From assembly GCA_030583785.1 (NCBI GenBank), contig CP129475.1, forward strand, positions 543,559 through 607,558: a DNA stretch of 64,000 bases. Direction: 5' to 3'. The notes under the pieces were generated by a model. It saw only the letters and a list, made by a program, of their open reading frames with translations, did not search any database and was not told the origin of the DNA. Made by a program: the position numbers and the translations under genes. The stretch comes from Candidatus Dojkabacteria bacterium. GTDB taxonomy: Bacteria > Patescibacteriota > Dojkabacteria > B142 > OLB20. Below, in pieces: positions 9,837 through 57,711 of the stretch; the first letter of the stretch is position 1, and the number at the start of each line of letters is the position of its first letter.

Positions 9837-11057
9837 ATGCAAGAAACAGCTCTTGGTCTTCCACATTCTGGGAAAACTGGCCCCCTAGACCCATCTCGCC
9901 TGGAGAGCAGTTCAACCACCTACACCAACGGAAACAACCATGCAACCCCCCCTACTACTAATACCGCAGAAGCGACCGAAAGAGTTGCAACTGTCGATGA
10001 GATAGAGGCATATATTAACGGAAGACTATCAGAACACAACTTAACACCCGAAAGGGTTGTAAGAATACAAGATAGAATAACTCAAGATTTTCTCTCTGGA
10101 AGAAATGTAGTAAGTTATCCACTTGGACGACTTACCAACTCTTCAGAGCAACCATTACTTAGTTTAGGTGATCAGGATTTTACTGAACTTATGCACCAAG
10201 AAATCGAAAGATTCTTTCATGGTCACGAGCATCCTTTGTCTCTATCCTTCCTTAATTGGTCAACTATGAGTTCTATTATTAGGAAAGTAGGTGACGAACG
10301 ATACGGTACTTTCGTAGAGAAGAAAGGATGGGCTATTCCAACTTTTTCTGGACTAGATGTGGATCCCGGTGACCTAAACGCCATTCACGCAGTACTAATG
10401 CTGGCACCAAACGGAGGAGACCCTGTGGAGTTAAAGCACGCAGGCAGTATGCGTATAGTTTTCAGCGATATTCCAGAAAACCCAAATGCTGATCTATTAA
10501 GTATTATCGAAAACTGGCCATTCCTAGCTACTACGCACATCAAAAACGGTCGCGACGGAGAAATTACTGTCCCACAAGCAATTCGTGACGCCTGCAAGAT
10601 ACCTGACCTTACTGGACTAGAAAGAGCAATTCGACAAGGCAATGTCGTCACCTACGAAAGACTTATTGGAGCAAATTATAAAGAGATATTCGGAGAGAAT
10701 AAAAAAGTCGGCTTCAGAAATGGCACCCTCGCAGCTATGGGTGTAATAACACTACTTGCCTCGGCAAGATTACTTAGCAGAAGATCAAGACAGCAAGATC
10801 CGATTAGATATGTTGTTCTACAGGCCGACTCTCTTAACCACGAAATATACAAAGCAAACTTTGGCGAAGGCATGGGCATATTTACAATACATGAACATGC
10901 AGAAGCGCTCAAAAAGGACAATGGCACCGATTATCGATCTGACAAAACCTTCACTTCAATTATCGACCTTAAGCAAGCACAAAAGTATATACGAGAGAAT
11001 GTACCAACCCTTGCTGGATTTGCCGAATATGCACTTAACCTAGTAAGAGAGCCCTAG
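9837..11057 (+). CDS. hypothetical soluble protein (no recognisable domain)
   Basis: 406-aa ORF after a ~600-nt AT-rich non-coding stretch. It has no TM or signal peptide, and its composition looks less AT-biased than the neighbouring genes. I recognise no motif. Confidence 0.4.
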   Translation: MQETALGLPHSGKTGPLDPSRLESSSTTYTNGNNHATPPTTNTAEATERVATVDEIEAYINGRLSEHNLTPERVVRIQDRITQDFLSGRNVVSYPLGRLTNSSEQPLLSLGDQDFTELMHQEIERFFHGHEHPLSLSFLNWSTMSSIIRKVGDERYGTFVEKKGWAIPTFSGLDVDPGDLNAIHAVLMLAPNGGDPVELKHAGSMRIVFSDIPENPNADLLSIIENWPFLATTHIKNGRDGEITVPQAIRDACKIPDLTGLERAIRQGNVVTYERLIGANYKEIFGENKKVGFRNGTLAAMGVITLLASARLLSRRSRQQDPIRYVVLQADSLNHEIYKANFGEGMGIFTIHEHAEALKKDNGTDYRSDKTFTSIIDLKQAQKYIRENVPTLAGFAEYALNLVREP

Positions 11058-11109: not shown

Positions 11110-13431
11110 ATGATTACTGTTCTTTATACAGTTACAATTCTTCACTTTGTACTTGCTGCTTTTGTTATCTTCAAAGACAAGAAAAATCCTGTAAACATCA
11201 CCTTTTCGCTGTTCCTCGTGGGTGGAGCTTTATGGTCGCTCACAAATGCCTTTTTTCAGGAAGCATTAACCGAGCAGGAAATGTTTGGCTGGGCCGCAGC
11301 ATCTTACTCTGCGGCAACGGTGATGCTCTTCTTTCTGGCACTTTTTTCCAAACTTATGATCGCAGGCAGCCTAGGCAAGAAGACTGCAATTGCTCTGGCT
11401 CTAACAGGATTAATATCTTTCATAGTTGTTTACATTCCCGATTTCGTTCTAAAAGGTGTCAATTTTGAGGGGAAAGCAATTATCGGAGGCCCTGCCCTGC
11501 CGTTATTGTTTGCGACATATATTGCTCTAATGTTCTTTACACTAATCACTCTATATAGAGGAATGATTTTAGCAACTGCTCGCAGAAAAATGCAGCTTAA
11601 ACTGGTGTTCTATGGAATCCTAGTAGTTGTTCTTATCGGAAATACTACCAACCTGATACTGCCTTCATTGAATGTATACTCGTTGGTTGCATTTGGCCCG
11701 TCATTCTCTTTGGTATTCCTGTCGCTTGTAGCCGTAGCGATTCTAAAGTACCAACTGTTAGACATCCGTTTCTTGCTAGGTCGCGTGATTTACTACACCC
11801 TACTTGCAGCACTCGTATATATTGCCTTTTACTTCTTTGTTAATTTTTACGAACTTACTTTCGGTTCAACAACCTCAATTCCGACTCTTATAGTTGGCGT
11901 ACCGATTGCTTATGCATTTGTACTTGCCTTCTCTGCCTTTGACTCGATCGTAAAAAACTACACTGATACACAACTGATCAATCCGGGATACAATCCTTTA
12001 GAAACAATAGACCAGCTGACTAGAGCAACTAATCAGATGCTTGATCTTCAGGACATTGCTGAAATATCTTTGGCCACAATTGCCAAAACTATTCGTCCAT
12101 CAATTGCAGGTTTGGTTATCGACACAAAAGGATCTGCCTGGAAAACCTTTTCGCATAAAACGGAACTGGATCTTAACTCAAAGGATTATAGTTTCATTGC
12201 ATCGCTTTTTAAGGTAGACGAGTTCAAACCGATTTTGCTTGATCTGTTAGATATCGACATCACCAATTCCCCTAATCTGACTAATCAGGCGATCCTGAAA
12301 ATTATGCATCGAGACAACATACATGCAATAGTACCTATTAAAGACAACGAAAACATAATTGGACTTCTCGCTCTGGGCGCAAAAGATGGAAACAGTCCAT
12401 ACAACATGCAAGATATTCGCCTACTAGAGGGAATATCAGGAAACCTAGGTTTGGCTATTAATCGATCGCTTTTATACAGAGAGATTCAGCAATTCAACAA
12501 AGACCTGCAAAGAAAAGTTGAACAGGCAACATCAGAACTTAAAGAGAAAAACAGTAATCTCGAAGTAGCACTTGCCAAGATAGAAGAAATCCGCAGACAA
12601 GAAAGAGACATGATAGATGTTATGGGTCACGAACTACGCACTCCTATCTCGATTGTCAGAAATGCCCTAATGGTTCTTGATGGCAAGTTTAAAAAGAATG
12701 CAGGAGAAATCCCTAAAGAGATGCTTGGAAAATATCTGGAAATGGCGATTGAATCAGTCAAACGCGAACTGATTCTTATTGAAACTTTTCTATCTGCAAC
12801 AAAAGTTGAAGGTAATAGAATCCAGCTTCGACTACAAAAGATTGACCTAAACGATGTGGTTAATGACTCGCTTGAAGCTCTTGGTAGAGACGCCAAGACC
12901 AAAGGATTAAACATTATTCACAAACCAAGCAAAGAACCGATTTACGCTTATGCAGACAGAGTCCGCACCCAAGAAATTATGGATAATTTTGTAAGTAATG
13001 CCATTAAATACACACCCAGAGGGAGTATAACAATCGATGTTAAGGCAGATAAGAAATGGGTAACGGCAACTGTTAAAGATACGGGCGTAGGAATTTCCAG
13101 ACAGGATCTGGAAAAACTCGGCAAAAAGTTCTTTAGGGCTCAACCGCACTACAGCGCAACAGATGGCGCCAGACCAAGCGGAACAGGACTTGGTCTTTAT
13201 GTAACCTTTGAACTGATCGATATAATGAACGGAAAGAGAATTATTACAAGCGAGCTCGGAAAAGGTTCTACCTTCGGATTTGCTCTGCCAATATTTGATG
13301 GACAAGAAGAAAAACAGATCGATCAGACATTTATGACCGATCCAAGCCTTGCCAGTGAAACAGTAGACAACTATGCAGGTAAGCCAATCAATAGAGCCTT
13401 AAACAGGTTTATGAACAGAGAAGAAATCTAG
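11110..13431 (+). CDS. multi-pass membrane sensor histidine kinase (TM sensor, GAF-like, HisKA, HATPase_c)
   Basis: About 8-9 N-terminal TM helices. H-box MGHELRTPISIVRNAL. N/G boxes: NAIKYT, DTGVGI, GTGLGLYV, GKGSTFGF. Confidence 0.8.
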   Translation: MITVLYTVTILHFVLAAFVIFKDKKNPVNITFSLFLVGGALWSLTNAFFQEALTEQEMFGWAAASYSAATVMLFFLALFSKLMIAGSLGKKTAIALALTGLISFIVVYIPDFVLKGVNFEGKAIIGGPALPLLFATYIALMFFTLITLYRGMILATARRKMQLKLVFYGILVVVLIGNTTNLILPSLNVYSLVAFGPSFSLVFLSLVAVAILKYQLLDIRFLLGRVIYYTLLAALVYIAFYFFVNFYELTFGSTTSIPTLIVGVPIAYAFVLAFSAFDSIVKNYTDTQLINPGYNPLETIDQLTRATNQMLDLQDIAEISLATIAKTIRPSIAGLVIDTKGSAWKTFSHKTELDLNSKDYSFIASLFKVDEFKPILLDLLDIDITNSPNLTNQAILKIMHRDNIHAIVPIKDNENIIGLLALGAKDGNSPYNMQDIRLLEGISGNLGLAINRSLLYREIQQFNKDLQRKVEQATSELKEKNSNLEVALAKIEEIRRQERDMIDVMGHELRTPISIVRNALMVLDGKFKKNAGEIPKEMLGKYLEMAIESVKRELILIETFLSATKVEGNRIQLRLQKIDLNDVVNDSLEALGRDAKTKGLNIIHKPSKEPIYAYADRVRTQEIMDNFVSNAIKYTPRGSITIDVKADKKWVTATVKDTGVGISRQDLEKLGKKFFRAQPHYSATDGARPSGTGLGLYVTFELIDIMNGKRIITSELGKGSTFGFALPIFDGQEEKQIDQTFMTDPSLASETVDNYAGKPINRALNRFMNREEI

Positions 13432-14498
13432 TATTCTCTGTTAATCATATAATCAGCAACACCATCTAAGAATTCTCTGCCCTCCCCTTGCCACTCGAGT
13501 CTAGTTTCTAGTGCAGCTTTTGCCTGGGCTACAAACTTTCTTGTTTGTTCTTGTGAGTATTCCAAAGAACCTGTATCGCGGATAATCTGTCTGACCTTGT
13601 CGGCATCTTTCTGAGTTATATTATGATTACCAAGTGCCTGAGTTATTGTTTTCACCTGTTTTGGAGTTCCGTTTTCTAAAGCCTTGATTATTAAAAGTGT
13701 GTGTTTTCCCTCTCGCAAGTCAGAAGTATTTGCTTTGCCTAGCTTTTCTTCGTCTCCAAACATGCCAAGGATATCGTCTTGGATTTGAAAAGCTATCCCA
13801 GCAGGAATAGCATAGTCTGTTAAGACTTTCACATCATCGTCAGTCGCACCTGCAAGAATTGCACCAACCGAGATCGGAGTTTCGTAGGTATATGTTGCGG
13901 TCTTAAACTCATGAACCAAAAAGACATCTTCCTCGCTAACACTTTTTCTTACAGAGCCTACTACATCTAGCATTTGTCCATAACCTACGGTTACAATCTG
14001 CTTATGAAGTTTGCTTAGTGCTTTAACCTTTAGCGGAGCATCAAAGTCTGAATCGGTTAAAATATCACAAGCAAGATGACAGGCAATATCTCCAAGATTA
14101 ATCGCCATACTTTCTCCAAAATGGACCGGATCTTGCATTCCATACTGTTGCCTATGGACATCTGCGTATATTGTATGAATTGTCGCTCCTCCTCTGCGTA
14201 AAGCGTCCTGATCCATAACATCATCGTGAATCAATAGGTACGACTGGATGATTTCGATAAAGGCAGATACTCGCAGAGCCTCTTCTGAATTCTTGCCACG
14301 AAGCATAAGATAGGTATAATACATTAAGGCTGCACGCAAACGCTTGGCTTTTCTGAGAGTATATTCTTTTAGATAAGTCACCGCAGAATGTGCCACCGGA
14401 GATATATTCTTAGCTTGCGGGACAACTTGGTCAAAATATTCATCTAGAAGTGGTTCAAGTTTATTTCTAAACTGCTCTAGTGTTTGTTTTGCGTCCAT
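13428..14498 (-). CDS. trans-polyprenyl diphosphate synthase (FPP/GGPP synthase family)
   Basis: First and second Asp-rich motifs: LIHDDVMDQDALRRG and FQIQDDILGMFGDEEKLGK. Product chain length cannot be read from the sequence. Confidence 0.8.
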   Translation of the reverse strand: MDAKQTLEQFRNKLEPLLDEYFDQVVPQAKNISPVAHSAVTYLKEYTLRKAKRLRAALMYYTYLMLRGKNSEEALRVSAFIEIIQSYLLIHDDVMDQDALRRGGATIHTIYADVHRQQYGMQDPVHFGESMAINLGDIACHLACDILTDSDFDAPLKVKALSKLHKQIVTVGYGQMLDVVGSVRKSVSEEDVFLVHEFKTATYTYETPISVGAILAGATDDDVKVLTDYAIPAGIAFQIQDDILGMFGDEEKLGKANTSDLREGKHTLLIIKALENGTPKQVKTITQALGNHNITQKDADKVRQIIRDTGSLEYSQEQTRKFVAQAKAALETRLEWQGEGREFLDGVADYMINREY

Positions 14499-14573
14499 AT
14501 TGATGTAAAGTGATGATGGATATATTTTCCACGATTATATAGCAGAAACTGGGTTAGGTCTAACATTTCAGAT

Positions 14574-16124
14574 ATGAACTCAAGTAAAATTAAAGATACC
14601 ATAAGTGGATGTAATACTTATCCTCACACAACTTTCTCAATATATGGTCTGACAATTATCCTTATAGACAACCTTGAATCTTTCAAAGATCTTGAGCTCA
14701 CAGTTGTTGACCATATTCTTAATAATGCTAGATCTATTTGTATAAGTGGTAAAGATTATCGTTTAATTATCGAAGGCAAAGAATCGAACTATTATCAATC
14801 ACATTTCTTCAACTTCCAGCTAAATCTCATGGTATATGTTGGTTTAAATCGGTTTACGAAAAGAAGTGATTATCGCAAGAGAGAGATTAAGCAATTAGGT
14901 AGAGATATTATTCACTTTCTTGAGCATGAGATAAATAAGCTAACGGACTTCAACGAAAAAACTGTTGGCTTTGAATTAGTTGTAGGGAAATACATAAATC
15001 AGATACCAAAGCTATATAGAAACAAGAACTACGCGAAAATAATAAGCAAAAGAAGAGAGAGACTATCAAGGAAGTCACCTATACTTATATATACTGCTGA
15101 AGGGCTCGATAAGGATATACTATCACAAATTGATATAGCTCCCTTTATCGACAGTATTCCATCAAGATCAATGATTGCAAATTCACCAGAGGCCTCGATT
15201 CTGCTTGCCGAGAGAGCAACACACTCAAAAGAAATTATAGTTAATAAAATAAAAGATACGATAAATGAGCATGGAGGACTCCCTGCATTCTGGCAGTCAG
15301 AGTATTTCAATCTCTTTTGGATGACAGAAATCCTTTCCGTCTCAAATCAAATCGACAGTGAAACAAATAAATTACTATTTGATAAGCTTAAATTAACAAC
15401 CCTAATTAGTGATGGCATGGAAGGATCTATGAATAAGAAGAAGGGTTTCAGTATCGCAAAAGGTTTTAGCTTATACGATCTTGATACAACCGCAATGGGT
15501 ATAAGAGCATTGGCGTATATTGGAATTGATAACCACCAATTGGAAGAATTTAACTATAATTACTATCTATCTAATGGCGGTAAGTATCAAACCTATCCCA
15601 ACGACAATAGAGAATCTGTAACAACAATCGCACATACTTTATCTGCACAGATTATTCAAAGAAATGTCGATCCCAATATTGTAAACCAATTATTAAATCT
15701 AATTAATCGCAATCAATTAAGTGATAAATGGCATACATCAAGAGTATATGTATTGTTTACGATTCTACACAGCTTAATTGAATTAAGAAAGTTTACAAAT
15801 GATTATGTAGATGTTACAGAACTGGTATTACGAAAACTAATGACATATAAAAGTAAAAATTCAATGTCATTTACTTCTTTGAATTTACCTGGTGGTGGGA
15901 CTATTGAAGAGACATGTTGGGCGATTCTATCAATCTATCATTACTTAAAATCTTCAGAGAAACAAGACAAATATCTAACTCAAATACTAAAGGGTGCAAT
16001 TGAATTTATTAAAGAGGAGAGAGAAAGGTACCTAACCGAGAAACTCTGGGTAGTCAAGATCCCCTACAGGCCCTATTATGTTGTAGATACTTTAATTAAT
16101 TGTTGTTTAGGTATTAATATCTGA
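14574..16124 (+). CDS. alpha/alpha-toroid protein resembling class II terpene cyclase / prenyltransferase-squalene oxidase repeat family (DxDTTA variant motif)
   Basis: C-terminal ~300 aa carry repeated helical-hairpin signatures: HGGLPAFW, SNGGKYQ, NLPGGGTIEETCWAILSI (compare GGWGE...TAWALLAL). A YDLDTTAMGIRALAYIG segment is close to the class II cyclase DxDDTA(M/V) motif with its third Asp replaced by Thr. The N-terminal ~200 aa are of unknown fold. The gene is very AT-rich and divergent from the polyprenyl synthase. Confidence 0.35.
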   Translation: MNSSKIKDTISGCNTYPHTTFSIYGLTIILIDNLESFKDLELTVVDHILNNARSICISGKDYRLIIEGKESNYYQSHFFNFQLNLMVYVGLNRFTKRSDYRKREIKQLGRDIIHFLEHEINKLTDFNEKTVGFELVVGKYINQIPKLYRNKNYAKIISKRRERLSRKSPILIYTAEGLDKDILSQIDIAPFIDSIPSRSMIANSPEASILLAERATHSKEIIVNKIKDTINEHGGLPAFWQSEYFNLFWMTEILSVSNQIDSETNKLLFDKLKLTTLISDGMEGSMNKKKGFSIAKGFSLYDLDTTAMGIRALAYIGIDNHQLEEFNYNYYLSNGGKYQTYPNDNRESVTTIAHTLSAQIIQRNVDPNIVNQLLNLINRNQLSDKWHTSRVYVLFTILHSLIELRKFTNDYVDVTELVLRKLMTYKSKNSMSFTSLNLPGGGTIEETCWAILSIYHYLKSSEKQDKYLTQILKGAIEFIKEERERYLTEKLWVVKIPYRPYYVVDTLINCCLGINI

Positions 16125-16128
16125 AAAT

Positions 16129-16683
16129 ATGAAAGCAATCTCAATTATTACAGAGCCTAAACTTACATTCACCATTCTACTTATATACATATCGATCTTC
16201 AGAAACAATAATTTGATTGAATTCTTTGTATATCTGCTAGTTATAATTATTTCACTATTATTGGTAAAGAGAACGAAAGATAAAAACCTTGTTGAAGAAA
16301 CTTATGAATATAAAACTAAACCTGAGAAATCTCTTCGAATAAGCACATATTTATTGACAATCATAATGTCGATTCTTATGTTTTTATTCGCGGTAATAAA
16401 CAGCCGACAATCAGACCTATCATTTTCATTAATTCTGATTGTGTTAACAATTATTATGCTTGTCTTTGCCATACTAGGCACAAAACTAAGCGCACATTTA
16501 ATGTATACAGCGCTCATTATTCTCTATTTCTTTGAAGGTGTGACTAGTTTCATCATAATGTTGTTAGTTTTGCCTTTCGTTGCATTCTCACGAGTAAAGT
16601 TAAAGAAGCATAGTATTAAGCAAATTTTTATGACAGCAATATTAATAGTAATAGTTTCGATAATCAGGGCATTAATAAAATGA
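16129..16683 (+). CDS. polytopic small membrane protein (hypothetical)
   Basis: 184 aa with 5-6 hydrophobic helices. Sits in the very AT-rich island, translationally coupled to the flanking genes. Confidence 0.4.
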   Translation: MKAISIITEPKLTFTILLIYISIFRNNNLIEFFVYLLVIIISLLLVKRTKDKNLVEETYEYKTKPEKSLRISTYLLTIIMSILMFLFAVINSRQSDLSFSLILIVLTIIMLVFAILGTKLSAHLMYTALIILYFFEGVTSFIIMLLVLPFVAFSRVKLKKHSIKQIFMTAILIVIVSIIRALIK

Positions 16684-18671
16684 ATCAAAAATACACAGAT
16701 AACAATCTCCAGACAGATATTGATCGACTATTTGTAGCTCAAGATATCATTAAGGAGTTATCAGCAAAAAATTCATTTGAAGAAGTTGCGGTTAGTGCTC
16801 TAACTTTAATCGAGAAAAGAATGGGTTACTCTGCCGCATCGATATCTATGGTTAATAATGAAAAAGACACGATTCAATTAAAATATGTTTCAGATACATA
16901 TCTTTCGAAGATCCTTAAAAGCCTTGTATTAAACGAAAGGGTTATGGGTCAATATAGTATGAAAAAAGGGATAAAGACATTAACAATGCGAGCAGCACTT
17001 GAAGGTGAAGTAAAGATTGATAACGATATAACAAAATTCACAGTACCACCATTAACAAGAACAATTGCTCAAGCAATTCAGTTATTTACTAGGACAAAAT
17101 GTATGGTAGCTGTACCAATAAGATCGAAAGCTAGGGTAATTGCTGTACTAAACTTTACTGTTCCTAAAGACAAAACTGAAATTGGGGTAAACGAACAGAA
17201 GACATTAAAACTTTTTGTTGACCAGATAGGTCTAATTATAGATAACATTATCAACAACGAAGAGATAAAGAGCTTCAACAAACAACTTGAGGAAAAGGTC
17301 GCAATCGCAACAAAAGACCTCGAAAAAAGAAATACGAACCTTGAAACCTTATACAACTTGACTAGTAATATATCTCAAACACTCAATCCCGATCAAGTAC
17401 TGCAAACTTCTGTGAACACGATCCCCATCGATGAGGAACTTATAGGTGTTACCGTTTCAACATATGACCAAATCACAAAGAAGATCTCCATAAAAGCAAC
17501 AACCCAGAGTTTACTTGCAGAAAAGGCACTTGAAATAATCGGAAATTTCTCAAAGTATGAACTCAATTTATCGAACCCATTACATAGAAAGAATCTCCTA
17601 GTAAGAGCTTTGAAAGAAGGAACACCAAAGGAAACAAAGGATTTGTATGATTTTGTTAGACCAATCCTTAACAAATCAATGTCTGAAGGTTTAAACAGAT
17701 TATTAAAAATTGAGAACATACTTATTTACCCATTGTTAGCCCGTGGTGAACCTATTGGTGCAATCGTCTTCTATCTTAAAAAAGTCGGGGAGACAAGTAT
17801 TACAACCGAAAAACAACAGCTTTATTCTACTTATGCGTCACAGCTAAGTATCGCACTTGAGAACGCACTCCTATTTAGCAAATCACAAGAAATTACTACC
17901 AATTTGCAAGAAGCCAGGCAAAGAGAAAGGGATATGGTTGATGTCATGGGGCATGAACTAAGAACACCTATTTCTATTGTCAGAAATGCTCTATTAACAC
18001 TTGAGAAAGATTACAAAGCAGATAAGAAGATTGAAGATCAAGAAAAACTTGGTAGGTATTTAGACATGGCAATTGAATCAACAAAAAGAGAGATTCGTTT
18101 GATAGAAACCCTTCTCTCAGCTACGAAAGTTGAAGGAAACAAGGTTCAACTTGACCTAACGAAAGTTGATTTGACAGATGTGATCAACGACTCAATAGAA
18201 GCGATGAAAGGATACTTTGATGACAAGCCCAGAGTCAAACTTATCTACAATGCACCCAAAAGGCCAGTCTATATATATTCCGATCGAGTGAGGATACAAG
18301 AAATTACAGACAATTTATTAAGTAATGCTATTAAATATACTGCAGAAGGTTATGTAAAGATTGATTTACAAAAAAATAGCGATGAGGCTTGGATCACTAT
18401 TAAGGACACAGGCATCGGAATCGATGAACCTGACTTAAAAAACCTGGGCCATAAGTTCTTTAGAGCCAAAGGTATGCTAACTGAAGATCCAAATATTGTG
18501 CAGCCTAGTGGGACAGGACTTGGTCTTTTTGTATCGTTTAATCTACTGAAGCTTCTAAACGGCAGAAAACAAATTAAGAGTAATCGAGGAAAAGGATCAA
18601 CATTCAGCTTTTCGCAACCAATCTATAGAAATCAAAGGAATTCAAGAATTGAAGGGTCGATGGTAGGCTGA
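16680..18671 (+). CDS. soluble GAF-domain sensor histidine kinase, paralog of 11110..13431
   Basis: The HisKA/HATPase_c region is nearly collinear with HK1 (RERDMVDVMGHELRTPISIVRNAL ; LIETLLSATKVEGN ; NAIKYT ; GTGLGLFV ; GKGSTFSF). No TM segment. The N-terminus has GAF-like repeats. Confidence 0.75.
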   Translation: MNQKYTDNNLQTDIDRLFVAQDIIKELSAKNSFEEVAVSALTLIEKRMGYSAASISMVNNEKDTIQLKYVSDTYLSKILKSLVLNERVMGQYSMKKGIKTLTMRAALEGEVKIDNDITKFTVPPLTRTIAQAIQLFTRTKCMVAVPIRSKARVIAVLNFTVPKDKTEIGVNEQKTLKLFVDQIGLIIDNIINNEEIKSFNKQLEEKVAIATKDLEKRNTNLETLYNLTSNISQTLNPDQVLQTSVNTIPIDEELIGVTVSTYDQITKKISIKATTQSLLAEKALEIIGNFSKYELNLSNPLHRKNLLVRALKEGTPKETKDLYDFVRPILNKSMSEGLNRLLKIENILIYPLLARGEPIGAIVFYLKKVGETSITTEKQQLYSTYASQLSIALENALLFSKSQEITTNLQEARQRERDMVDVMGHELRTPISIVRNALLTLEKDYKADKKIEDQEKLGRYLDMAIESTKREIRLIETLLSATKVEGNKVQLDLTKVDLTDVINDSIEAMKGYFDDKPRVKLIYNAPKRPVYIYSDRVRIQEITDNLLSNAIKYTAEGYVKIDLQKNSDEAWITIKDTGIGIDEPDLKNLGHKFFRAKGMLTEDPNIVQPSGTGLGLFVSFNLLKLLNGRKQIKSNRGKGSTFSFSQPIYRNQRNSRIEGSMVG

Positions 18672-19735: not shown

Positions 19736-20278
19736 TTACTTACAATTCACACTAATTTGGCCTTGCCCTTTTGCAAATGCTTCGTACTCTGCCTCACAAC
19801 CAGTACAAACTGAATCAGCTGGATCTGCTAAACAAGCTTTACAGCCTACGCTGTTTGGTGCCGATAAACAGGTCTGGAATAAGTTTGGATCTGGTCTTGA
19901 AGCGCCAAAAAAGACAAAGACTAATACTATACCGACTATTGCCAAAAGCATTGCTGCAATACCCATGAAGATGGCAGTTATTGATTTTTGCGCTTCTTCG
20001 ATTTTACCGGAATCACCTTGAGACTGAATATACTTGATAGCTGCCATAATTGCATATACAACTGCAATTAGAACAACAATACCAAGAGCAATAACTAAAG
20101 CAAGTTGCACTCGACTGGTAACAAACTGTGCAGAACCGCTACCGTCTGGACCAGTAAGATTGAATATATCAGCTATTTGCGCAGGCAATAAACTTTGTGC
20201 AGCAACAACATTGACAAGACCTACTACAACAAAGAATGCCATTAATGCAAAAGCAACTGGAAAGAATCGTTTGGACAT
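19736..20278 (-). CDS. VirB2/TrbC-like pilin-fold protein with C-terminal Cys-rich tail (paralog 2)
   Basis: Signal peptide. Helix (LALVIALGIVVLIAVVYAIMAAI), loop (QSQGDSGKIEEAQKS), helix (AIFMGIAAMLLAIVGIVLVFVFF). Tail has 7 Cys (CLSAPNSVGCKACLADPADSVCTGCEAEY). Confidence 0.55.
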   Translation of the reverse strand: MSKRFFPVAFALMAFFVVVGLVNVVAAQSLLPAQIADIFNLTGPDGSGSAQFVTSRVQLALVIALGIVVLIAVVYAIMAAIKYIQSQGDSGKIEEAQKSITAIFMGIAAMLLAIVGIVLVFVFFGASRPDPNLFQTCLSAPNSVGCKACLADPADSVCTGCEAEYEAFAKGQGQISVNCK

Positions 20279-20362
20279 AAATATTAAATAATAATTAATG
20301 ACTAATACTCTCTATTTACAATTAGTTTAGCCTATCTGGTTATAAATGTTAAGTATTAACAA

Positions 20363-20914
20363 TTAAAACCAGCGCGAACTGATATTTTCACAAGATTGTT
20401 CCCATCTTCTGTACTCATTAAGAGTAATATCGTTGACTACAAGACTCTGCCATTCTTGACCATCGCGTACCTTGCAACAGCCTATGGCTACATTCTGTCT
20501 GAAATCATCTTCGCTATAGCCTTTTAATGTTTCGTCTGTTTCAAGATATTGAAACATGAATTGTCCGCTTGTTCCACCACACTGTGCAAGATTTGTATGC
20601 CAAGAATAAATATCCCCTATTCCTGTGAAAGCTCCAACCACAGATAAAACGACTAGAAAACCGAGGAACATAGCAATTCCAATCCAGATATTGGTAATTG
20701 TCTTTTTGCCTGCTTCGATCCCATCCGGTTCTGCCGCACTGGTAATAATTCGGATGCCTGCATAAATCGACAATGCAACCCAGACCACCACCATAACAGT
20801 GAAGACCATACTAATTCCAAAAGCGATTACCGATAGAACTCCTCCCGTAGCGATTCCTCCAACATTGGGAATTAGTAATTGAATGCCGCCGATTGTTGTT
20901 TGTAGATTGAACAT
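20363..20914 (-). CDS. VirB2/TrbC-like pilin-fold protein with C-terminal Cys-containing domain (paralog 3)
   Basis: Helix - SAAEPDGIEAGKKT loop - helix core. A ~80-aa C-terminal domain has 4 Cys, including a CC pair. Confidence 0.5.
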   Translation of the reverse strand: MFNLQTTIGGIQLLIPNVGGIATGGVLSVIAFGISMVFTVMVVVWVALSIYAGIRIITSAAEPDGIEAGKKTITNIWIGIAMFLGFLVVLSVVGAFTGIGDIYSWHTNLAQCGGTSGQFMFQYLETDETLKGYSEDDFRQNVAIGCCKVRDGQEWQSLVVNDITLNEYRRWEQSCENISSRWF

Positions 20915-20927
20915 GCTAATTATAATT

Positions 20928-21665
20928 TTACGGAATTAACTGCCATACTCCAGAAATGGAAGTTGGTGTCTCACGATTACAAATATAATTTTCAATTTCT
21001 CCATTAGTTAGAGCCCGATATGCTTTCTTCCCTATAGGTGAACATGCTTGGTTTGTTACCGTACCAATTAGCCTTTCTGGAGGGACCAAATCAAAATCAA
21101 AGAGGTTTTCGGCAAGACCAAGCAACATAGCCAACAACTGAATAATGATTATGCCAAATACAGATATAACTACTCCGATAAGAGCGTTCTTAAAAATTTT
21201 AACAGAGAGTTCGACTTTGTCTGCATTGTCTGCGGCCGTTGTTCGAACAATCATTCCGTACACTGCCATAAGTACAGTAACAACAGCAATAACACCCATT
21301 ACTGCAGAAAGTAATAACCGAGTTATTCGCGGGATAGCCATCTGAGGAGGACCGAAATCTATTCCAGAGAAATTGACACTGTTAACAACTTCGTCTGTGG
21401 CTTGATCCTCTCTTTCTTTCGGTTCTGAAGGATCTCCTTTTTTGCAGCTACGACCCTCTGCAATAATCCAATACTGACAAACATCATTGCAATCAGCTGC
21501 AGGATCGGTGAATTTAAGCACAGAACAAGCCGGATCAACAACTAGGTCAGTACGATTTGGTTCACTAACGGGCCCGGAATCCGGATCATCTTGGTCAATA
21601 ATGGCGCAACCAGAAAGTACAGTTAAAGCAACTGCAAATATAAATAGATTGAGTAATTTCTTCAT
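20928..21665 (-). CDS. lipoprotein with N-terminal Cys-rich domain, central VirB2/TrbC-like core and C-terminal Cys pair (paralog 4)
   Basis: Lipobox LTVLSGC. N-terminal domain with 5 Cys. Core IAVVTVLMAVYGMIV - RTTAADNADKVELSVK - ALIGVVISVFGIIIIQLLAMLLG. Confidence 0.5.
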   Translation of the reverse strand: MKKLLNLFIFAVALTVLSGCAIIDQDDPDSGPVSEPNRTDLVVDPACSVLKFTDPAADCNDVCQYWIIAEGRSCKKGDPSEPKEREDQATDEVVNSVNFSGIDFGPPQMAIPRITRLLLSAVMGVIAVVTVLMAVYGMIVRTTAADNADKVELSVKIFKNALIGVVISVFGIIIIQLLAMLLGLAENLFDFDLVPPERLIGTVTNQACSPIGKKAYRALTNGEIENYICNRETPTSISGVWQLIP

Positions 21666-21668
21666 TTG

Positions 21669-22022
21669 TTAATTACCAATTAACTGGATTCCGAAAATTG
21701 CCCCAATTAAACCAACTACTACAGGTGCAACAATGATAATAACAAAACCAATAACAGCATATGTCAATATTTTGTTTGCCTTTGCCTCTTGGTCTGCGTT
21801 ACCGGCAGCCGTGAGCTTGGTAAAACCCCCCAGAATGATCATAGCCAGCAAAGCCAAAGTTGCAGCAGGAAGGATAAACGCACTTAGCGAAGAAACAATG
21901 CTACTAATGTTTCCGAAAGCAGGATTGACAGGGTTTTGAATTGGATTCTGCGCTAAAACTTTTGTCGCTGCCACGAAAAAGATAACTATTGAAAGTACGA
22001 ATGTGCTTAATTGCTTTTTCAT
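21669..22022 (-). CDS. minimal VirB2/TrbC-like pilin (paralog 5, no Cys domain)
   Basis: Signal peptide MKKQLSTFVLSIVIFFVAATKVLA. Helix, AAGNADQEAKANK loop, helix (AVIGFVIIIVAPVVVGLIGAIFG). Size and topology are those of a canonical T-pilin/TrbC subunit. Start moved to the internal Met (22022); the ORF track gives 22043. Confidence 0.6.
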   Translation of the reverse strand: MKKQLSTFVLSIVIFFVAATKVLAQNPIQNPVNPAFGNISSIVSSLSAFILPAATLALLAMIILGGFTKLTAAGNADQEAKANKILTYAVIGFVIIIVAPVVVGLIGAIFGIQLIGN

Positions 22023-22064
22023 ATTCTTAGAATAGCAGAGCAAATAAATTGATTCAAATTACTC

Positions 22065-23207
22065 TTATCCTCCCAGGAAGTTTTCAGGAAGGATGCCAAG
22101 TACATTTATTCCCAAGAATCTTAGTATCACGACTGCGCCAACCAAAACCACCAAAGCAATTAGCGCAGAAGTAATCAGTTCCTTTGCCTCTCTTATTTGT
22201 TCGGGATTATCTGTCTGCATCATTATTGCAGCCTGCAGAAATCTGATTATCATGACACCACCGATTATTCCTATTCCTATTTGAAACAGCCTGGTAATGA
22301 TTCCATCTCTTGAATAATCAACGCAACCGATTGCAGTCCAAATTGTATTTGGACTGCTTGTGCATTCAATACAAAGGTTTTTTTCAGCATCGTTTCCTAC
22401 TATTGTTTCGCAACCGGTTGCTCCCGGAGCACCTTGTCGCCTTTCATACTCTTCTTCTGTAATCCAACTACCACTGTAACATCGTTTTTCTTTTAGTGTG
22501 TATCCTGGCGGATAGCAATTTTGTTCACAGCCAGACCTTGTTGTTGGAACTAGTGAGGACTTATCTGGATCTTCATCTACTGCCACACAGTTGTTGGGCT
22601 GGCATGAATAGCTTTGTTCAGGCGCCCGACCATGAGGATCTGTCAACAACAATAGATTATATAGACCTTCTCCGGGAGACCGTCCCTGGTCGTTAGCATT
22701 CTTGCAAGAGATCGGTCCTGGATTACCAGGTACTTGTGCCGGTGTGTATAGATTATTCACAACATTTACGACTCGATTATAGTTTCCTTCAAAGTCATTC
22801 TGATATCCCTGCGGGCAACAGACTATATACTTGGTAAAGCCCACCTGCTTCCAGATTGGATCCATATTTACGGGACAACAATAGAATTCGTTCCAATCAC
22901 CAAAATTTCCGTCGGTTCCTTTAACTCGTGCGATTCTCTCTTCGGCCAAACAAACCTCTACCCTATCGCCAGATCTTCTGCCTTGTACCGGATTTCCAAA
23001 AATACCTTCAGCAGGCTCTGTTAAACAAACTTTTTCTATTGTAGGTTGCTGCCTTCCATTGGTCATGTTCCTTTCGGTTAAACCATCTGGACAGACTGGT
23101 GTTGGAACACAGACGGCGCTTCCCACAGCAGAGACATTTTCGGATACTAAAGAAGCAAAGGTTACGAAAGAAGCAATGATTATGAATAAACGGACAATGT
23201 GAATCAC
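22065..23207 (-). CDS. secreted protein with large N-terminal Cys-rich ectodomain (~24 Cys) fused to C-terminal VirB2/TrbC-like core (paralog 6)
   Basis: Signal peptide. A ~280-aa domain dense in Cys/Pro/Gly. C-terminal core IGIGIIGGVMIIRFLQAAIMM - QTDNPEQIREAKE loop - LITSALIALVVLVGAVVILRFLG. Confidence 0.5.
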   Translation of the reverse strand: MIHIVRLFIIIASFVTFASLVSENVSAVGSAVCVPTPVCPDGLTERNMTNGRQQPTIEKVCLTEPAEGIFGNPVQGRRSGDRVEVCLAEERIARVKGTDGNFGDWNEFYCCPVNMDPIWKQVGFTKYIVCCPQGYQNDFEGNYNRVVNVVNNLYTPAQVPGNPGPISCKNANDQGRSPGEGLYNLLLLTDPHGRAPEQSYSCQPNNCVAVDEDPDKSSLVPTTRSGCEQNCYPPGYTLKEKRCYSGSWITEEEYERRQGAPGATGCETIVGNDAEKNLCIECTSSPNTIWTAIGCVDYSRDGIITRLFQIGIGIIGGVMIIRFLQAAIMMQTDNPEQIREAKELITSALIALVVLVGAVVILRFLGINVLGILPENFLGG

Positions 23208-57709: not shown

Positions 57710-57711
57710 CA

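What the first reader, a model, noticed from the sequence alone, without database searches (positions are those of the whole stretch)
13428..16124. Terpene-cyclase-like alpha/alpha-toroid protein with DxDTTA motif, divergent from a trans-polyprenyl diphosphate synthase
The 516-aa protein carries the helical-hairpin signatures of the SHC/prenyltransferase toroid (GGLPAFW; NGGKYQ; LPGGGTIEETCWAILSI). It also has FSLYDLDTTAMGIRALAYIG, strikingly close to the class II diterpene cyclase motif (x)DIDDTAM(A/G). The first two Asp are retained, including the central general-acid position. The third is Thr.

Its gene shares a 75-nt promoter region with a polyprenyl synthase that carries both DDxxD motifs. 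A two-gene isoprenoid cyclisation module would be unexpected in a reduced-genome organism. It could yield a membrane polycyclic or sesquarterpene-like lipid.
Basis: partly seen in the sequence, partly recalled or inferred. Interest (0 to 1): 0.65.

Follow-up and report, generated by a model that had tools for sequence, protein, structure and literature searches.

The report
Diterpene cyclase operon in ultra-small bacteria
A gene that no curated protein-family model recognises in a tiny-genome Dojkabacteria bacterium almost certainly encodes a real class II terpene cyclase related to the tuberculosis enzyme Rv3377c, and in most relatives examined it sits in a conserved gene cluster with a prenyl-diphosphate synthase, a putative membrane phosphatase and GAF-domain sensor proteins.

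Summary
The two divergent ORFs, the 75-nt spacer and all quoted peptide motifs are present. The 516-aa protein matches no Pfam or NCBIfam model. A 16-sequence family profile nevertheless hits only class II diterpene cyclases in the PDB (Rv3377c, E=2e-25). A confident AlphaFold model (pLDDT 89.7) superposes full-length on Rv3377c, PtmT2 and Tpn2 (TM about 0.7).

DLDTT aligns in register with Rv3377c's native DxDT acid motif. The activating His, the DKW lysine and the catalytic-base Tyr are invariant in the core family. The Thr is therefore a known functional variant, not a defect.

The neighbouring synthase is a short-chain, GGPPS-like enzyme. Its second motif is DDxxG, not DDxxD.

New finding: in 10 of 11 divergent lineages the cyclase is followed by a ~185-aa membrane protein with PAP2-like phosphatase motifs and then a cytoplasmic tandem-GAF histidine kinase. 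Five lineages add 2–4 tandem HTH(-GAF) regulators. The synthase changes position but stays clustered.

Most likely pathway: GGPP, then a bicyclic diterpenyl diphosphate, then a dephosphorylated diterpenoid, coupled to GAF sensing. A sesquarterpene or triterpene product is disfavoured. This is a new, apparently Patescibacteria-associated variant of a known enzyme kind.

The parts
13428..14498 (-). Short-chain trans-isoprenyl diphosphate synthase (GGPPS-like), 356 aa. First motif DDVMD with Tyr at position -5; second motif DDILGMFGD.
   Evidence: PF00348 E=1.7e-55. Best NCBIfam models are GGPP_syn, IdsA and an encapsulin-cargo polyprenyl transferase, all below their equivalog cutoffs. Best PDB hit is 3lk5, deposited as GGPP synthase, E=5.5e-43, with the same DDxxG second motif. 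Motifs are conserved in six cluster orthologues.
14499..14573 (.). 75-nt divergent intergenic spacer (32% GC).
   Evidence: One promoter-like site lies on the minus strand (14562-14534), but such sites occur at chance frequency in the region.
14574..16124 (+). Class II (protonation-initiated) terpene cyclase, beta-gamma didomain, 516 aa. Member of a divergent subfamily so far attributed to Patescibacteria where a taxon is named.
   Evidence: No Pfam or NCBIfam hit. Family profile against PDB: 6vpt (Rv3377c) E=2.1e-25 aligned 83-517, and all nine hits are class II diterpene cyclases. AF2 pLDDT 89.7, pTM 0.91. Foldseek TM 0.71/0.76 to 6vpt, 0.72 to 5bp8, 0.68-0.73 to 7xkx.
15477..15491 (+). D302-L-D304-T305-T306, the general-acid motif (DxDT variant of DxDD). 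D304 is the predicted proton donor.
   Evidence: In register with D293/D295/T296 of Rv3377c and with DADDT of canonical homologues. D302, D304 and T305 are invariant in 16 of 16 sequences. Residue roles are taken from PMC9585517.
15633..15635 (+). H354, equivalent to the activating His (H341 of Rv3377c) that hydrogen-bonds the catalytic Asp.
   Evidence: Aligned. Invariant in the 14 core-family sequences; Asp in outgroups P0020 and P0021.
15723..15731 (+). D384-K385-W386, the (D/E)KW motif. The equivalent Lys in Tpn2 is proposed to contact the substrate diphosphate.
   Evidence: D384 and K385 are invariant in 16 of 16; position 386 is W, F or Y. The motif and the Lys role are taken from PMC9585517 and PMC9814783.
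16065..16067 (+). Y498, equivalent to the catalytic-base Tyr (Y479 of Rv3377c). V494 is the 475-equivalent and is never Asp.
16129..16683 (+). 184-aa polytopic membrane protein (about six hydrophobic segments), 4 nt downstream of the cyclase stop. Putative divergent PAP2-type phosphatase. K119-x-S-A-H123 lies at nt 16483-16497 and S154-R-x5-H161-x3-Q165 at nt 16588-16623.
   Evidence: Immediately downstream of the cyclase in 10 of 11 lineages. Invariant P10, R70, K119, S121, A122, H123, R155, H161 and Q165. PAP2 is the top Pfam family for 3 of 8 members, but below cutoff (best 19.2 bits against 27.2). The family HMM scores E. coli YbjG at 14.5 bits, and 0 of 2000 shuffles reach that. hhalign aligns the C3 motif. 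The only PDB hit is B. subtilis PgpB, E=1.2.
16680..18671 (+). 663-aa soluble histidine kinase with two GAF domains plus HisKA and HATPase_c. Its start overlaps the stop of the 184-aa ORF by 4 nt.
   Evidence: Pfam. Full-length orthologues (35-55% identity) follow the small protein in every lineage where the sequence extends.

Best explanation
The 516-aa ORF encodes an active beta-gamma class II terpene cyclase. It belongs to a small, very divergent subfamily; the members whose source names a taxon are Patescibacteria. Its nearest characterised relative is M. tuberculosis Rv3377c (halimadienyl diphosphate synthase).

Mechanism, inferred by homology: D304 of the D302-x-D304-T305 motif protonates the terminal C=C of an all-trans prenyl diphosphate. 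D304 is held in its reactive state by H354 and by the T305-D302 hydrogen bond. The substrate is most likely the GGPP made by the adjacent short-chain synthase. The resulting cation cyclises to a bicyclic species, and Y498 or a nearby group removes a proton. The product is a bicyclic diterpenyl diphosphate. The hydrophobic residue at the Asp/Gly switch position weakly suggests a rearranged halimane- or clerodane-type skeleton and argues against a labdane skeleton formed by the Asp-water route.

The translationally coupled 184-aa membrane protein, a divergent PAP2-like enzyme, then probably removes phosphate to give a membrane-resident diterpenol or monophosphate. The co-operonic cytoplasmic tandem-GAF kinase, and the HTH-GAF regulators present in other lineages, couple this pathway to signal transduction, probably by sensing a pathway intermediate or product.

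Shown here: fold, homology, conservation of catalytic residues, and conserved gene linkage. Inferred: substrate chain length, product skeleton, phosphatase activity and the GAF ligand.

My sub-confidences are: class II cyclase 0.9; C20 substrate 0.6; PAP2-like phosphatase step 0.5; GAF domains sensing the terpenoid 0.25-0.3.
For: Homology: the single sequence hits 6vpt at E=1.8e-4 over residues 125-499. The 3-sequence profile reaches proteins carrying PF13243, PF13249 and PF00432. The 16-sequence profile hits 6vpt at 2.1e-25, and all nine PDB hits at E<=0.01 are class II diterpene cyclases.

Fold: AF2 pLDDT 89.7 and pTM 0.91. TM is 0.71-0.76 to Rv3377c, 0.72 to PtmT2 and 0.68-0.73 to Tpn2.

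Catalytic residues: D302, D304, T305, H354, D384, K385, W492 and Y498 are invariant in the 14 core members and in register with D293, D295, T296, H341 and Y479 of Rv3377c. DxDT is native and functional in Rv3377c. DxDTT is described as a class II motif whose middle Asp is essential.

Synthase: PF00348; nearest structure is deposited as a GGPPS; Tyr at -5.

Linkage: cyclase, small protein and GAF-HK occur in that order in 10 of 11 core lineages although cyclase identity is only about 27-36%. The synthase lies upstream and divergent (window, L001, L017), upstream on the same strand (L007, L016) or downstream (L018). HTH(-GAF) arrays occur in 5 lineages.

PAP2-like evidence.

Precedent: cyclisation followed by dephosphorylation occurs in AsDMS.
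Against: No curated model (Pfam SQHop_cyclase_N/C, Prenyltrans, or any NCBIfam) detects the protein. Identity to any characterised enzyme is only about 16-22%.

No enzyme activity, substrate or product has been measured.

The PAP2 assignment rests on sub-threshold scores that cover only the C2-C3 hairpin. No canonical C1 (Kx6RP) motif is present, and the C3 Asp is replaced by Gln.

One lineage (L014) has the cyclase without the small protein, kinase or synthase nearby, and one (L006/L012) has only a decayed synthase remnant.

No MEP or mevalonate genes occur in the 64-kb window, so precursor supply is unverified.

The synthase could simply be the organism's housekeeping source of primer for undecaprenyl phosphate.

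No literature precedent for GAF sensing of terpenoids was found.
Confidence: 0.72

Rival explanations
1. It is a class II sesquiterpene cyclase acting on FPP (drimenyl-diphosphate-synthase-like). The neighbouring synthase would make FPP, and the PAP2-like protein would yield a drimenol-type alcohol.
For: SsDMS structures (beta-gamma fold, FPP substrate) are recovered by Foldseek at TM 0.55-0.62. DxDTT is also the motif of the FPP-using AsDMS and AstC. Chain length of the synthase is inferred only from motifs; the second-best PDB hit, 8f8f, is deposited as an FPP synthase.
Against: SsDMS and AsDMS do not appear among the family-profile hits at E<=0.01, whereas nine diterpene cyclases do. Structural similarity is clearly higher to the GGPP-using Rv3377c, PtmT2 and Tpn2. 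The best synthase relatives are GGPPS models.
Confidence: 0.15
2. One reading: the enzyme cyclises a long, non-diphosphate or C30-C35 substrate (squalene-like or sesquarterpene) to give a hopanoid-like polycyclic membrane lipid.
For: The fold superfamily is shared with squalene-hopene and oxidosqualene cyclases. OSC 1w6j appears at Foldseek E=2.4e-5, TM 0.46. CPR bacteria are generally reported to lack de novo lipid synthesis (general knowledge), so a membrane rigidifier would make biological sense.
Against: No SHC or OSC reaches E<=0.01 against the family profile. At 516 aa the protein matches beta-gamma diterpene cyclases in size. K385 of the DKW motif, whose Tpn2 equivalent is proposed to bind diphosphate, is invariant. 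The synthase has a bulky Tyr at -5, which is typical of short-chain products by the established chain-length rules (my knowledge). No squalene or long-chain synthase gene occurs in the window.
Confidence: 0.04
3. The cyclase is real, but the conserved neighbours are not a pathway. The synthase would be the housekeeping FPP/GGPP source for undecaprenyl phosphate. The small membrane protein would be a non-enzymatic or transport partner, and the GAF kinase an unrelated regulator retained by synteny.
For: A trans-IDS is needed anyway for cell-wall carrier lipid (general knowledge). The synthase has typical window GC (41.0%), whereas cyclase, small protein and kinase are AT-rich (32.9%, 29.4% and 35.5%), which suggests different histories. 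The PAP2 evidence is sub-threshold. L014 has the cyclase alone.
Against: Outer flanks differ between loci while the core order persists. The synthase changes position and strand yet stays within the cluster. Start and stop codons overlap or nearly abut. GAF sensors recur in two different output architectures, and in the distant P0020 locus.
Confidence: 0.15
4. The protein is a non-catalytic alpha/alpha toroid (LanC-like, glycoside-hydrolase-like or thioester-domain-like), and the DLDTT resemblance is fortuitous.
For: There are no curated family hits. Alpha-2-macroglobulin and complement thioester domains appear low in the Foldseek lists.
Against: Thioester domains match only about 300 residues at TM 0.32-0.34, whereas the cyclases match full-length at TM about 0.7. 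No LanC-like protein reaches E<=0.01 against the family profile. The acid motif, activating His, DKW motif and base Tyr are all invariant and in register.
Confidence: 0.02

Closest known systems
Rv3377c (MtHPS), the halimadienyl/tuberculosinyl diphosphate synthase of Mycobacterium tuberculosis (PDB 6vpt)
   Same: Best sequence and structure match. Same beta-gamma size class (about 500 aa). Same DxDT(T) acid motif with Thr replacing the third Asp. Same activating His, DKW motif and C-terminal LW..K..Y with the base Tyr. Also encoded near a GGPP-type synthase (the operon is described in PMC9585517).
   Different: Only about 18-22% identity. Escapes the Pfam models that recognise Rv3377c-like proteins. 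The position equivalent to A475 is Val, Ile, Phe or Leu, not Gly or Ala. No Rv3378c-type adenosine transferase was found among the window ORFs scanned. The partners here are a PAP2-like membrane protein and GAF sensors. The host is a CPR bacterium, not an actinobacterium.
Actinobacterial class II diterpene cyclases PtmT2 (ent-CPP synthase, 5bp8) and Tpn2 (terpentedienyl-PP synthase, 7xkx)
   Same: Full-length beta-gamma superposition at TM 0.68-0.73. Shared general-acid Asp, activating His and DKW Lys.
   Different: Those enzymes have canonical DxDD and typically sit in clusters with class I synthases or UbiA-type cyclases. No such gene is found here.
Bifunctional drimenol synthases (AsDMS) and fungal AstC
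   Same: They use a DxDTT class II motif whose middle Asp is essential. In AsDMS, cyclisation is followed directly by dephosphorylation. That is the same two-step logic proposed here.
   Different: AsDMS is a HAD-beta fusion acting on FPP with a single shared active site. Here the cyclase is a beta-gamma didomain, and the putative phosphatase is a separate integral-membrane PAP2-like protein. Structural similarity is limited to one domain (TM about 0.38).
PAP2 lipid phosphate phosphatases (E. coli YbjG, B. subtilis PgpB/YodM)
   Same: For the 184-aa partner: similar size and polytopic topology. A Ser-x-His motif, then a ~30-residue helical hairpin, then SRx5Hx3(D/Q), in the same order and spacing as C2 and C3. 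YbjG itself dephosphorylates a polyprenyl diphosphate, according to its RefSeq annotation.
   Different: Below Pfam threshold. No Kx6RP (C1) motif. C2 is SAH rather than SGH/SDH. The C3 Asp is replaced by Gln.

Membership tests
Class II (DxDD-type) diterpene cyclases, beta-gamma didomain | Double alpha-barrel beta-gamma fold | tested here: met
   AF2 model pLDDT 89.7, pTM 0.91. Foldseek TM 0.71/0.76 to 6vpt, 0.72 to 5bp8 and 0.68-0.73 to 7xkx, aligned over the full length.
Class II (DxDD-type) diterpene cyclases, beta-gamma didomain | DxDD-type motif with the central Asp as general acid, in register | tested here: met
   D302-L-D304-T305 aligns with DADDT, DCDTT and D293-C-D295-T296. D302, D304 and T305 are invariant in 16 of 16 sequences. 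The third position is Thr, as in the characterised member Rv3377c.
Class II (DxDD-type) diterpene cyclases, beta-gamma didomain | Activating His (bacteria) hydrogen-bonded to the catalytic Asp | tested here: met
   H354 aligns with H341 of Rv3377c and is invariant in the 14 core members.
Class II (DxDD-type) diterpene cyclases, beta-gamma didomain | (D/E)KW motif, with the Lys proposed to contact the substrate diphosphate | tested here: met
   D384 and K385 are invariant; position 386 is W, F or Y. The motif is defined.
Class II (DxDD-type) diterpene cyclases, beta-gamma didomain | Significant sequence-profile similarity to characterised members | tested here: met
   Family profile against PDB: 6vpt 2.1e-25, 8v0f 2.6e-18, 9b99 3.3e-17, 7xkx 1.4e-13, 3pya 8e-8, 5bp8 6.7e-5.
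Class II (DxDD-type) diterpene cyclases, beta-gamma didomain | Match to the curated Pfam models SQHop_cyclase_N/C (PF13249/PF13243) or Prenyltrans (PF00432) | tested here: not met
   No hit even at E<=1 and no NCBIfam hit. The same is true of P0002, P0003 and P0020. This measures model sensitivity; it is not a mechanistic feature.
Class II (DxDD-type) diterpene cyclases, beta-gamma didomain | Protonation-initiated cyclisation of GGPP with retention of the diphosphate | not testable with these tools
   Requires an enzyme assay.
Rv3377c-type halimadienyl diphosphate synthase subfamily | DxDT acid motif and the Y479 catalytic base | tested here: met
   T305 and Y498 are in register and invariant.
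Rv3377c-type halimadienyl diphosphate synthase subfamily | Small residue (Gly or Ala) at position 475 | tested here: not met
   The equivalent V494 is V, I, F or L in all 16 sequences.
Rv3377c-type halimadienyl diphosphate synthase subfamily | Clustering with an Rv3378c-type transferase or a class I terpene synthase | tested here: not met
   No such family was found among the 35 window ORFs scanned against Pfam or in the related loci. About 20 smaller window ORFs were not scanned.
Squalene-hopene / oxidosqualene (triterpene) cyclases | Profile similarity to SHC/OSC, a size of about 630-730 aa, and a squalene-supplying neighbour | tested here: not met
   No SHC or OSC at E<=0.01. The protein is 516 aa. 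OSC matches only at TM 0.46. No squalene synthase in the window.
PAP2 phosphatase superfamily (for the 184-aa partner) | C2 (PSGH) and C3 (SRx5Hx3D) motifs separated by a helical hairpin | tested here: inconclusive
   Invariant K-x-S-A-H, then about 30 residues, then (S/A/C)-R-x5-H-x3-Q. Aligned to the C3 motif of YbjG and PgpB. HMM against YbjG scores 14.5 bits and beats 2000 of 2000 shuffles. The C3 Asp is Gln, however.
PAP2 phosphatase superfamily (for the 184-aa partner) | C1 motif Kx6RP | tested here: not met
   Only an invariant Arg (R70), with no conserved Lys at -7 and no following Pro.
PAP2 phosphatase superfamily (for the 184-aa partner) | Pfam PF01569 gathering score (27.2 bits) | tested here: not met
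   Best member scores 19.2 bits, E=1.1e-3. 3 of 8 members match at E<=1, and the window protein does not.
Short-chain trans-isoprenyl diphosphate synthases (GGPPS/FPPS) | Polyprenyl_synt domain with two Asp-rich motifs | tested here: met
   PF00348 E=1.7e-55. DDVMD plus DDILG..GD, the latter identical in type to 3lk5 and 8f8f.
Short-chain trans-isoprenyl diphosphate synthases (GGPPS/FPPS) | NCBIfam equivalog cutoff for a specific product length | tested here: not met
   GGPP_syn 195.6 bits against a cutoff of 500. All 16 models are below cutoff, so product length is inferred, not assigned.

The most novel reading that the evidence does not exclude
The cluster is a self-contained terpenoid signalling circuit in ultra-small (CPR/Patescibacteria) bacteria. 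A synthase, a class II cyclase and a PAP2-like phosphatase would make a cyclic diterpenoid, and this compound (or its diphosphate precursor) would be the ligand of the cluster's own cytoplasmic GAF domains, which are wired either to a histidine kinase or to arrays of HTH DNA-binding regulators. In effect this would be a bacterial 'diterpenoid hormone or autoinducer' system, possibly used in episymbiont-host or cell-cell communication. The evidence does not exclude it. GAF sensors co-occur with the cyclase in 10 of 11 core lineages and in a distant outgroup, in two different output architectures, and the GAF domains of the two architectures are mutually related.
Probability: 0.2. Interest if true: 0.85.

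Novelty: new variant of a known kind. Interest (0 to 1): 0.6.

Why it matters
CPR/Patescibacteria are generally described as metabolically minimal bacteria, largely unable to make their own lipids, and they are not usually regarded as producers of specialised metabolites. A conserved, compact and probably functional diterpenoid pathway in several Patescibacteria lineages (Dojkabacteria, Saccharibacteria and unclassified MAGs) would add a new chemical capability to this group.

The family is invisible to the Pfam and NCBIfam terpene-cyclase models, so surveys that rely on such models would probably miss it.

The obligatory pairing with GAF sensor proteins is unusual for terpene clusters. It makes a concrete hypothesis testable: that a cyclic terpenoid is sensed intracellularly.

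The enzyme is also a very distant relative of the tuberculosis virulence enzyme Rv3377c that shares its DxDT chemistry. That makes it useful for understanding which residues are truly essential in this variant acid motif.

Tried and rejected
1. Pfam and NCBIfam scans of the cyclase gave nothing, even at E<=1.
2. The first AF2 model, from 8 sequences, was poor in the N-terminal half (pLDDT 61.9). It was superseded by the 16-sequence model.
3. The third word-indexed homologue search, using the 16-sequence profile, returned only the eight proteins already known.
4. The genome contigs and metagenome-contig scans used a single peptide pattern and yielded only three loci, two of them the same organism.
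6. The promoter and terminator scan was at chance level, so no regulatory claim is made for the 75-nt spacer.
7. The L014 234-aa neighbour was tested as a possible small-protein homologue and rejected.
8. The L022 412-aa neighbour was tested as PAP2-like and rejected. It was also tested as a class I terpene synthase, with only a faint Pfam hit (E=0.17) and no PDB similarity, so it is left unresolved.
9. Literature searches for terpene cyclases in Patescibacteria/CPR and for GAF-terpenoid links found nothing relevant in the held library. The Rv3377c structure paper PMC8120997 is not held.
10. The LanC, glycoside-hydrolase and thioester-domain readings were considered and rejected on fold and profile ranks.

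Full report
OBSERVATION. The window carries two divergently oriented ORFs exactly as described: 13428-14498(-), 356 aa, and 14574-16124(+), 516 aa. They are separated by 75 nt (14499-14573). DLDTT is encoded at nt 15477-15491. The 516-aa protein is identical to an NCBI entry, 'MAG: hypothetical protein QY330_02635 [Candidatus Dojkabacteria bacterium]', on a 1,172,464-bp contig. The 'reduced-genome organism' premise is therefore correct. One detail needs correction. The synthase's first Asp-rich motif is DDVMD, but its second is DDILGMFGD (DDxxG), as in all six orthologous cluster synthases. The nearest solved structures, 3lk5 (deposited as a GGPP synthase) and 8f8f, have the same form. It is a subfamily trait, not a lesion. 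Sigma-70-like promoter matches are at chance level (23 found, 21.5 expected), so 'shared promoter region' remains an assumption.

WHAT THE 516-aa PROTEIN IS. No Pfam or NCBIfam model matches it, even at E<=1. The single sequence nevertheless hits PDB 6vpt at E=1.8e-4 over residues 125-499. 6vpt is M. tuberculosis Rv3377c, the class II diterpene cyclase that makes halimadienyl (tuberculosinyl) diphosphate (PMC9585517). A profile of the three closest homologues reaches proteins carrying SQHop_cyclase_N/C and Prenyltrans domains, one of them named halimadienyl-diphosphate synthase by its source. An exhaustive profile search of 1.84 billion representatives finds a compact family: 13 full-length representatives at E<=1e-30, then two intermediates (P0020 and P0021), then the general class II cyclase superfamily. 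The 16-sequence profile against all PDB sequences gives nine hits at E<=0.01. All nine are class II cyclases of prenyl diphosphates: Rv3377c at 2.1e-25 and aligned almost end to end, fungal and plant copalyl- or labdadienyl-PP synthases, Tpn2, AtCPS, abietadiene synthase, PtmT2 and OsCyc1. No squalene-hopene or oxidosqualene cyclase, LanC protein or prenyltransferase beta-subunit reaches that threshold.

STRUCTURE. With eight sequences the AF2 model was good only for the C-terminal half. With 16 family sequences it is confident throughout (pLDDT 89.7, pTM 0.91). Foldseek against the PDB puts Rv3377c first (E=1.9e-15, TM 0.71/0.76), followed by PtmT2 (TM 0.72) and Tpn2 (TM 0.68-0.73), all aligned full-length. 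Drimenyl-PP synthase SsDMS scores TM 0.55-0.62, OSC 0.46, and the thioester domains of alpha-2-macroglobulin and complement proteins only about 0.33 over one domain. The protein is therefore a beta-gamma didomain class II cyclase, not a single toroid and not a LanC- or GH-like fold.

CATALYTIC MACHINERY. The HMMER alignment to Rv3377c reproduces the published residue numbering. It gives these equivalences: D302=D293, D304=D295 (general acid), T305=T296, Y341=Y328, H354=H341 (the His that activates the acid) and Y498=Y479 (catalytic base). D384-K385-W386 corresponds to the (D/E)KW motif (residue roles). In the 14 core family members, D302, D304, T305, H354, D384, K385, W492 and Y498 are invariant despite about 27-36% pairwise identity to the query. 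In Rv3377c the Thr is native. It hydrogen-bonds the first Asp, and T296D lowers activity. DxDTT is also the functional motif of AsDMS and AstC, where mutating the middle Asp abolishes cyclisation (PMC9128629). The 'third Asp is Thr' feature is thus a known working variant, and it is common among the outgroup cyclases too. The position equivalent to Rv3377c A475 and Tpn2 G485 is an Asp/Gly switch between labdane and rearranged products. Here it is always V, I, F or L. This argues weakly against a labdane product formed by the Asp-water base route, but it does not identify the product.

THE SYNTHASE. It matches PF00348 at E=1.7e-55. The best NCBIfam models are GGPP synthase, IdsA and an encapsulin-cargo polyprenyl transferase, all far below their equivalog cutoffs. 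The best PDB hit is 3lk5 at 5.5e-43. The first motif has no insertion, and Tyr lies at position -5 in 5 of 6 orthologues. By the established chain-length-determination rules for trans-IDS enzymes (my knowledge, not tested here), this indicates a short-chain (C15-C20) product. C20 is the more likely product but is unproven.

THE CLUSTER (new relative to the finding). Context was recovered for 11 core-family lineages.
- Window (with identical copies L004/L005), L001 and L017: IDS divergent from the operon cyclase > ~185-aa protein > GAF-HisKA-HATPase kinase.
- L016: IDS > 98-aa gene on the opposite strand > 2 HTH-GAF > cyclase > 199 aa > kinase.
- L018: 3 HTH(-GAF) > 62-aa ORF > cyclase > 190 aa > kinase > IDS.
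- L007/L010 (a Saccharibacteria MAG): IDS > 4 HTH(-GAF) > cyclase > 179 aa > kinase. The kinase gene is cut by the contig end but is 55% identical to the L016 kinase.
- L019: 2 HTH > cyclase > 194 aa > kinase.
- L021: at least 4 HTH(-GAF) > cyclase > 177 aa > kinase.
- L006/L012: cyclase > 197 aa > kinase, then a decayed IDS that has lost the region carrying the first motif.
- L002: a short contig with cyclase > 189 aa > a cut ORF 50-56% identical to the kinases.
- L014: cyclase without any of these partners.
Outer flanks differ between loci (dnaA/dnaN and rnpA-yidC in L001, type-IV-pilin-like genes in the window). The genes overlap or nearly abut: in the window there is a 4-nt gap and then a 4-nt overlap. 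The IDS moves around the cluster without leaving it. The kinases are full-length orthologues at 35-55% identity, better conserved than the cyclases. They have no hydrophobic N-terminus, so they are cytoplasmic sensors. The GAF domains of the HTH-GAF proteins are detectably related to those of the kinases (BLASTP down to 2e-16). Within this 64-kb window they match only the two GAF domains of the cluster kinase. Even the distant outgroup P0020 shows receiver domain > cyclase > 412-aa protein > GAF kinase, with an IDS 7 kb away.

THE 184-aa PROTEIN. It is polytopic, with about six hydrophobic segments. Its invariant residues are P10, R70, K119, S121, A122, H123, R155, H161 and Q165. The pattern K-x-S-A-H, then about 30 residues, then (S/A/C)-R-x5-H-x3-Q resembles the C2 and C3 motifs of PAP2 lipid phosphatases (motif definitions are from my knowledge). 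The tests gave the following:
- PAP2 is the top Pfam family for 3 of 8 members, covering exactly this region, but below threshold (best 19.2 bits against 27.2). The window protein itself does not match.
- hhalign against E. coli YbjG, an undecaprenyl-pyrophosphate phosphatase, aligns SRVKLKKHSIKQ with SRVYLGVHWPLD (E=3.7e-4, probability 36%).
- The only PDB sequence hit is B. subtilis PgpB/YodM at the same motif, and it is not significant (E=1.2).
- The family HMM scores YbjG at 14.5 bits. The maximum over 2,000 composition-preserving shuffles is 10.3, and eight unrelated membrane proteins score 4.8 or less.
There is no canonical C1 motif, and the C3 Asp is Gln. I rate 'divergent PAP2-like phosphatase' at about 0.5.

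MOST LIKELY MECHANISM. The IDS makes GGPP. The cyclase protonates C14=C15 with D304 and forms a bicyclic diterpenyl diphosphate. The PAP2-like membrane protein removes phosphate, giving a membrane-associated diterpenol or monophosphate. Cyclisation followed by dephosphorylation has a direct precedent in AsDMS. The GAF kinase and the HTH-GAF regulators link the pathway to signalling. The fold, the homology, the residue conservation and the gene linkage are shown. Everything chemical is inferred.

RIVALS. An FPP-using drimenyl-type cyclase cannot be excluded (0.15). A triterpene or sesquarterpene product is unlikely (0.04). Incidental linkage of the neighbours is possible (0.15), but it is hard to reconcile with the shuffled yet persistent cluster. 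A non-catalytic toroid is effectively refuted.

COMPOSITION. The cyclase (32.9% GC) and the small protein (29.4%) are the two lowest-GC ORFs of the 54 in the window (mean 39.2%, s.d. 3.0). The kinase (35.5%) is sixth lowest, and the IDS (41.0%) is typical. This is compatible with the three-gene operon having a different history from the resident IDS, but that was not tested further.

NOVELTY AND SCORE. The enzyme kind is known, and DxDT(T) is a known variant. New here are a subfamily that curated models do not detect, so far attributed to Patescibacteria where a taxon is named, and its conserved cluster architecture with a PAP2-like protein and GAF sensors in place of class I synthases, P450s or Rv3378c-type transferases. 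I found no paper in the held library describing terpene cyclases in Patescibacteria or a GAF-terpenoid link. That is absence from the library, not proof of novelty. I rate it a new variant of a known kind, interest 0.6.

Noticed in passing
window 14574-18671 compared with its flanks: The cyclase (32.9% GC) and the 184-aa ORF (29.4%) are the two lowest-GC ORFs of the 54 in the window (mean 39.2%, s.d. 3.0). The GAF kinase (35.5%) is sixth lowest, while the adjacent IDS (41.0%) is typical. This may indicate a separate origin for the three-gene operon.
   Followed up: partly
window 11110-13431 (+): A 773-aa histidine kinase with an N-terminal 7TM (HisKA_7TM) region lies convergent to the IDS and overlaps it by 4 nt. 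Its kinase core is 53% identical to that of the cluster GAF kinase, so the two are paralogues. It is not present at this position in the other lineages.
   Followed up: partly
L007/L010 6205-9253; L016 8476-10001; L018 78-2743; L019 963-2505; L021 3-3571: Tandem arrays of 2-4 (possibly 5) paralogous ~245-270-aa HTH_3 (XRE-type) plus GAF regulators lie immediately upstream of the cyclase in five lineages (30-52% identical to one another). L018 also has a 62-aa fragment matching the C-terminus of such a regulator.
   Followed up: partly
L012 6132-6859 (same as L006, L011, L013): The polyprenyl synthase next to this lineage's cluster is a remnant. A 95-aa piece matches residues ~7-82 and a 146-aa piece matches residues ~211-354 of intact orthologues, so the region with the first Asp-rich motif is lost. 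The cyclase, small protein and kinase remain intact.
   Followed up: partly
L022 9485-14044 (GCA_025450075.1, outgroup cyclase P0020): The distant DGDTT cyclase is flanked by a stand-alone receiver domain upstream, and downstream by a 412-aa soluble helical protein and then a GAF histidine kinase. The 412-aa protein is not PAP2-like. It has a faint Terpene_syn_C_2 hit (E=0.17) and an N-x3-S-x3-E pattern (NGYKSYGRE), but no PDB sequence similarity. In P0020 and P0021 the activating His position is Asp.
   Followed up: partly
L014 1-21548 (P0015 lineage; contigs of 115 kb and 252 kb read, longest on record 411 kb): This is the only core-family cyclase without the small protein, kinase or synthase nearby. 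Its 10-kb surroundings hold three NUDIX hydrolase genes and a HAD hydrolase, which could in principle substitute for the dephosphorylation step. This was not tested.
   Followed up: no
window 55349-58869 (+): A phosphoketolase (XFP_N, XFP and XFP_C domains; E=3e-143) is followed directly by an acetate kinase (E=9e-119). Together they form a compact pentose/hexose-phosphate to acetate ATP-yielding pair.
   Followed up: no
window 954-3296(-), 26218-27882(+), 28248-29729(+), 43208-45220(-), 9837-11057(+): Several large ORFs (406-780 aa) have no Pfam match at E<=1e-5. Next to them are a 932-aa DUF11-repeat protein (29748-32546) and a 1239-aa protein with a weak DUF6541 match (32595-36314).
   Followed up: no
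window 19736-25783 (-): Downstream of the cluster lies a run of small genes without Pfam hits, followed by two T4SS_pilin-like genes and a ClpB-type AAA+ chaperone. The annotation comes from the identical Logan contig L004.
   Followed up: no
P0007 and P0008 (Logan assemblies): These two proteins share an identical Rv3377c-like C-terminal region with P0006 (501 aa, 1279 member sequences, DCDTT at 293 as in Rv3377c) but have different N-termini. One carries a DXP-synthase N-terminal domain (PF13292). They are probably assembly or gene-call fusions; I do not consider them real architectures.
   Followed up: no
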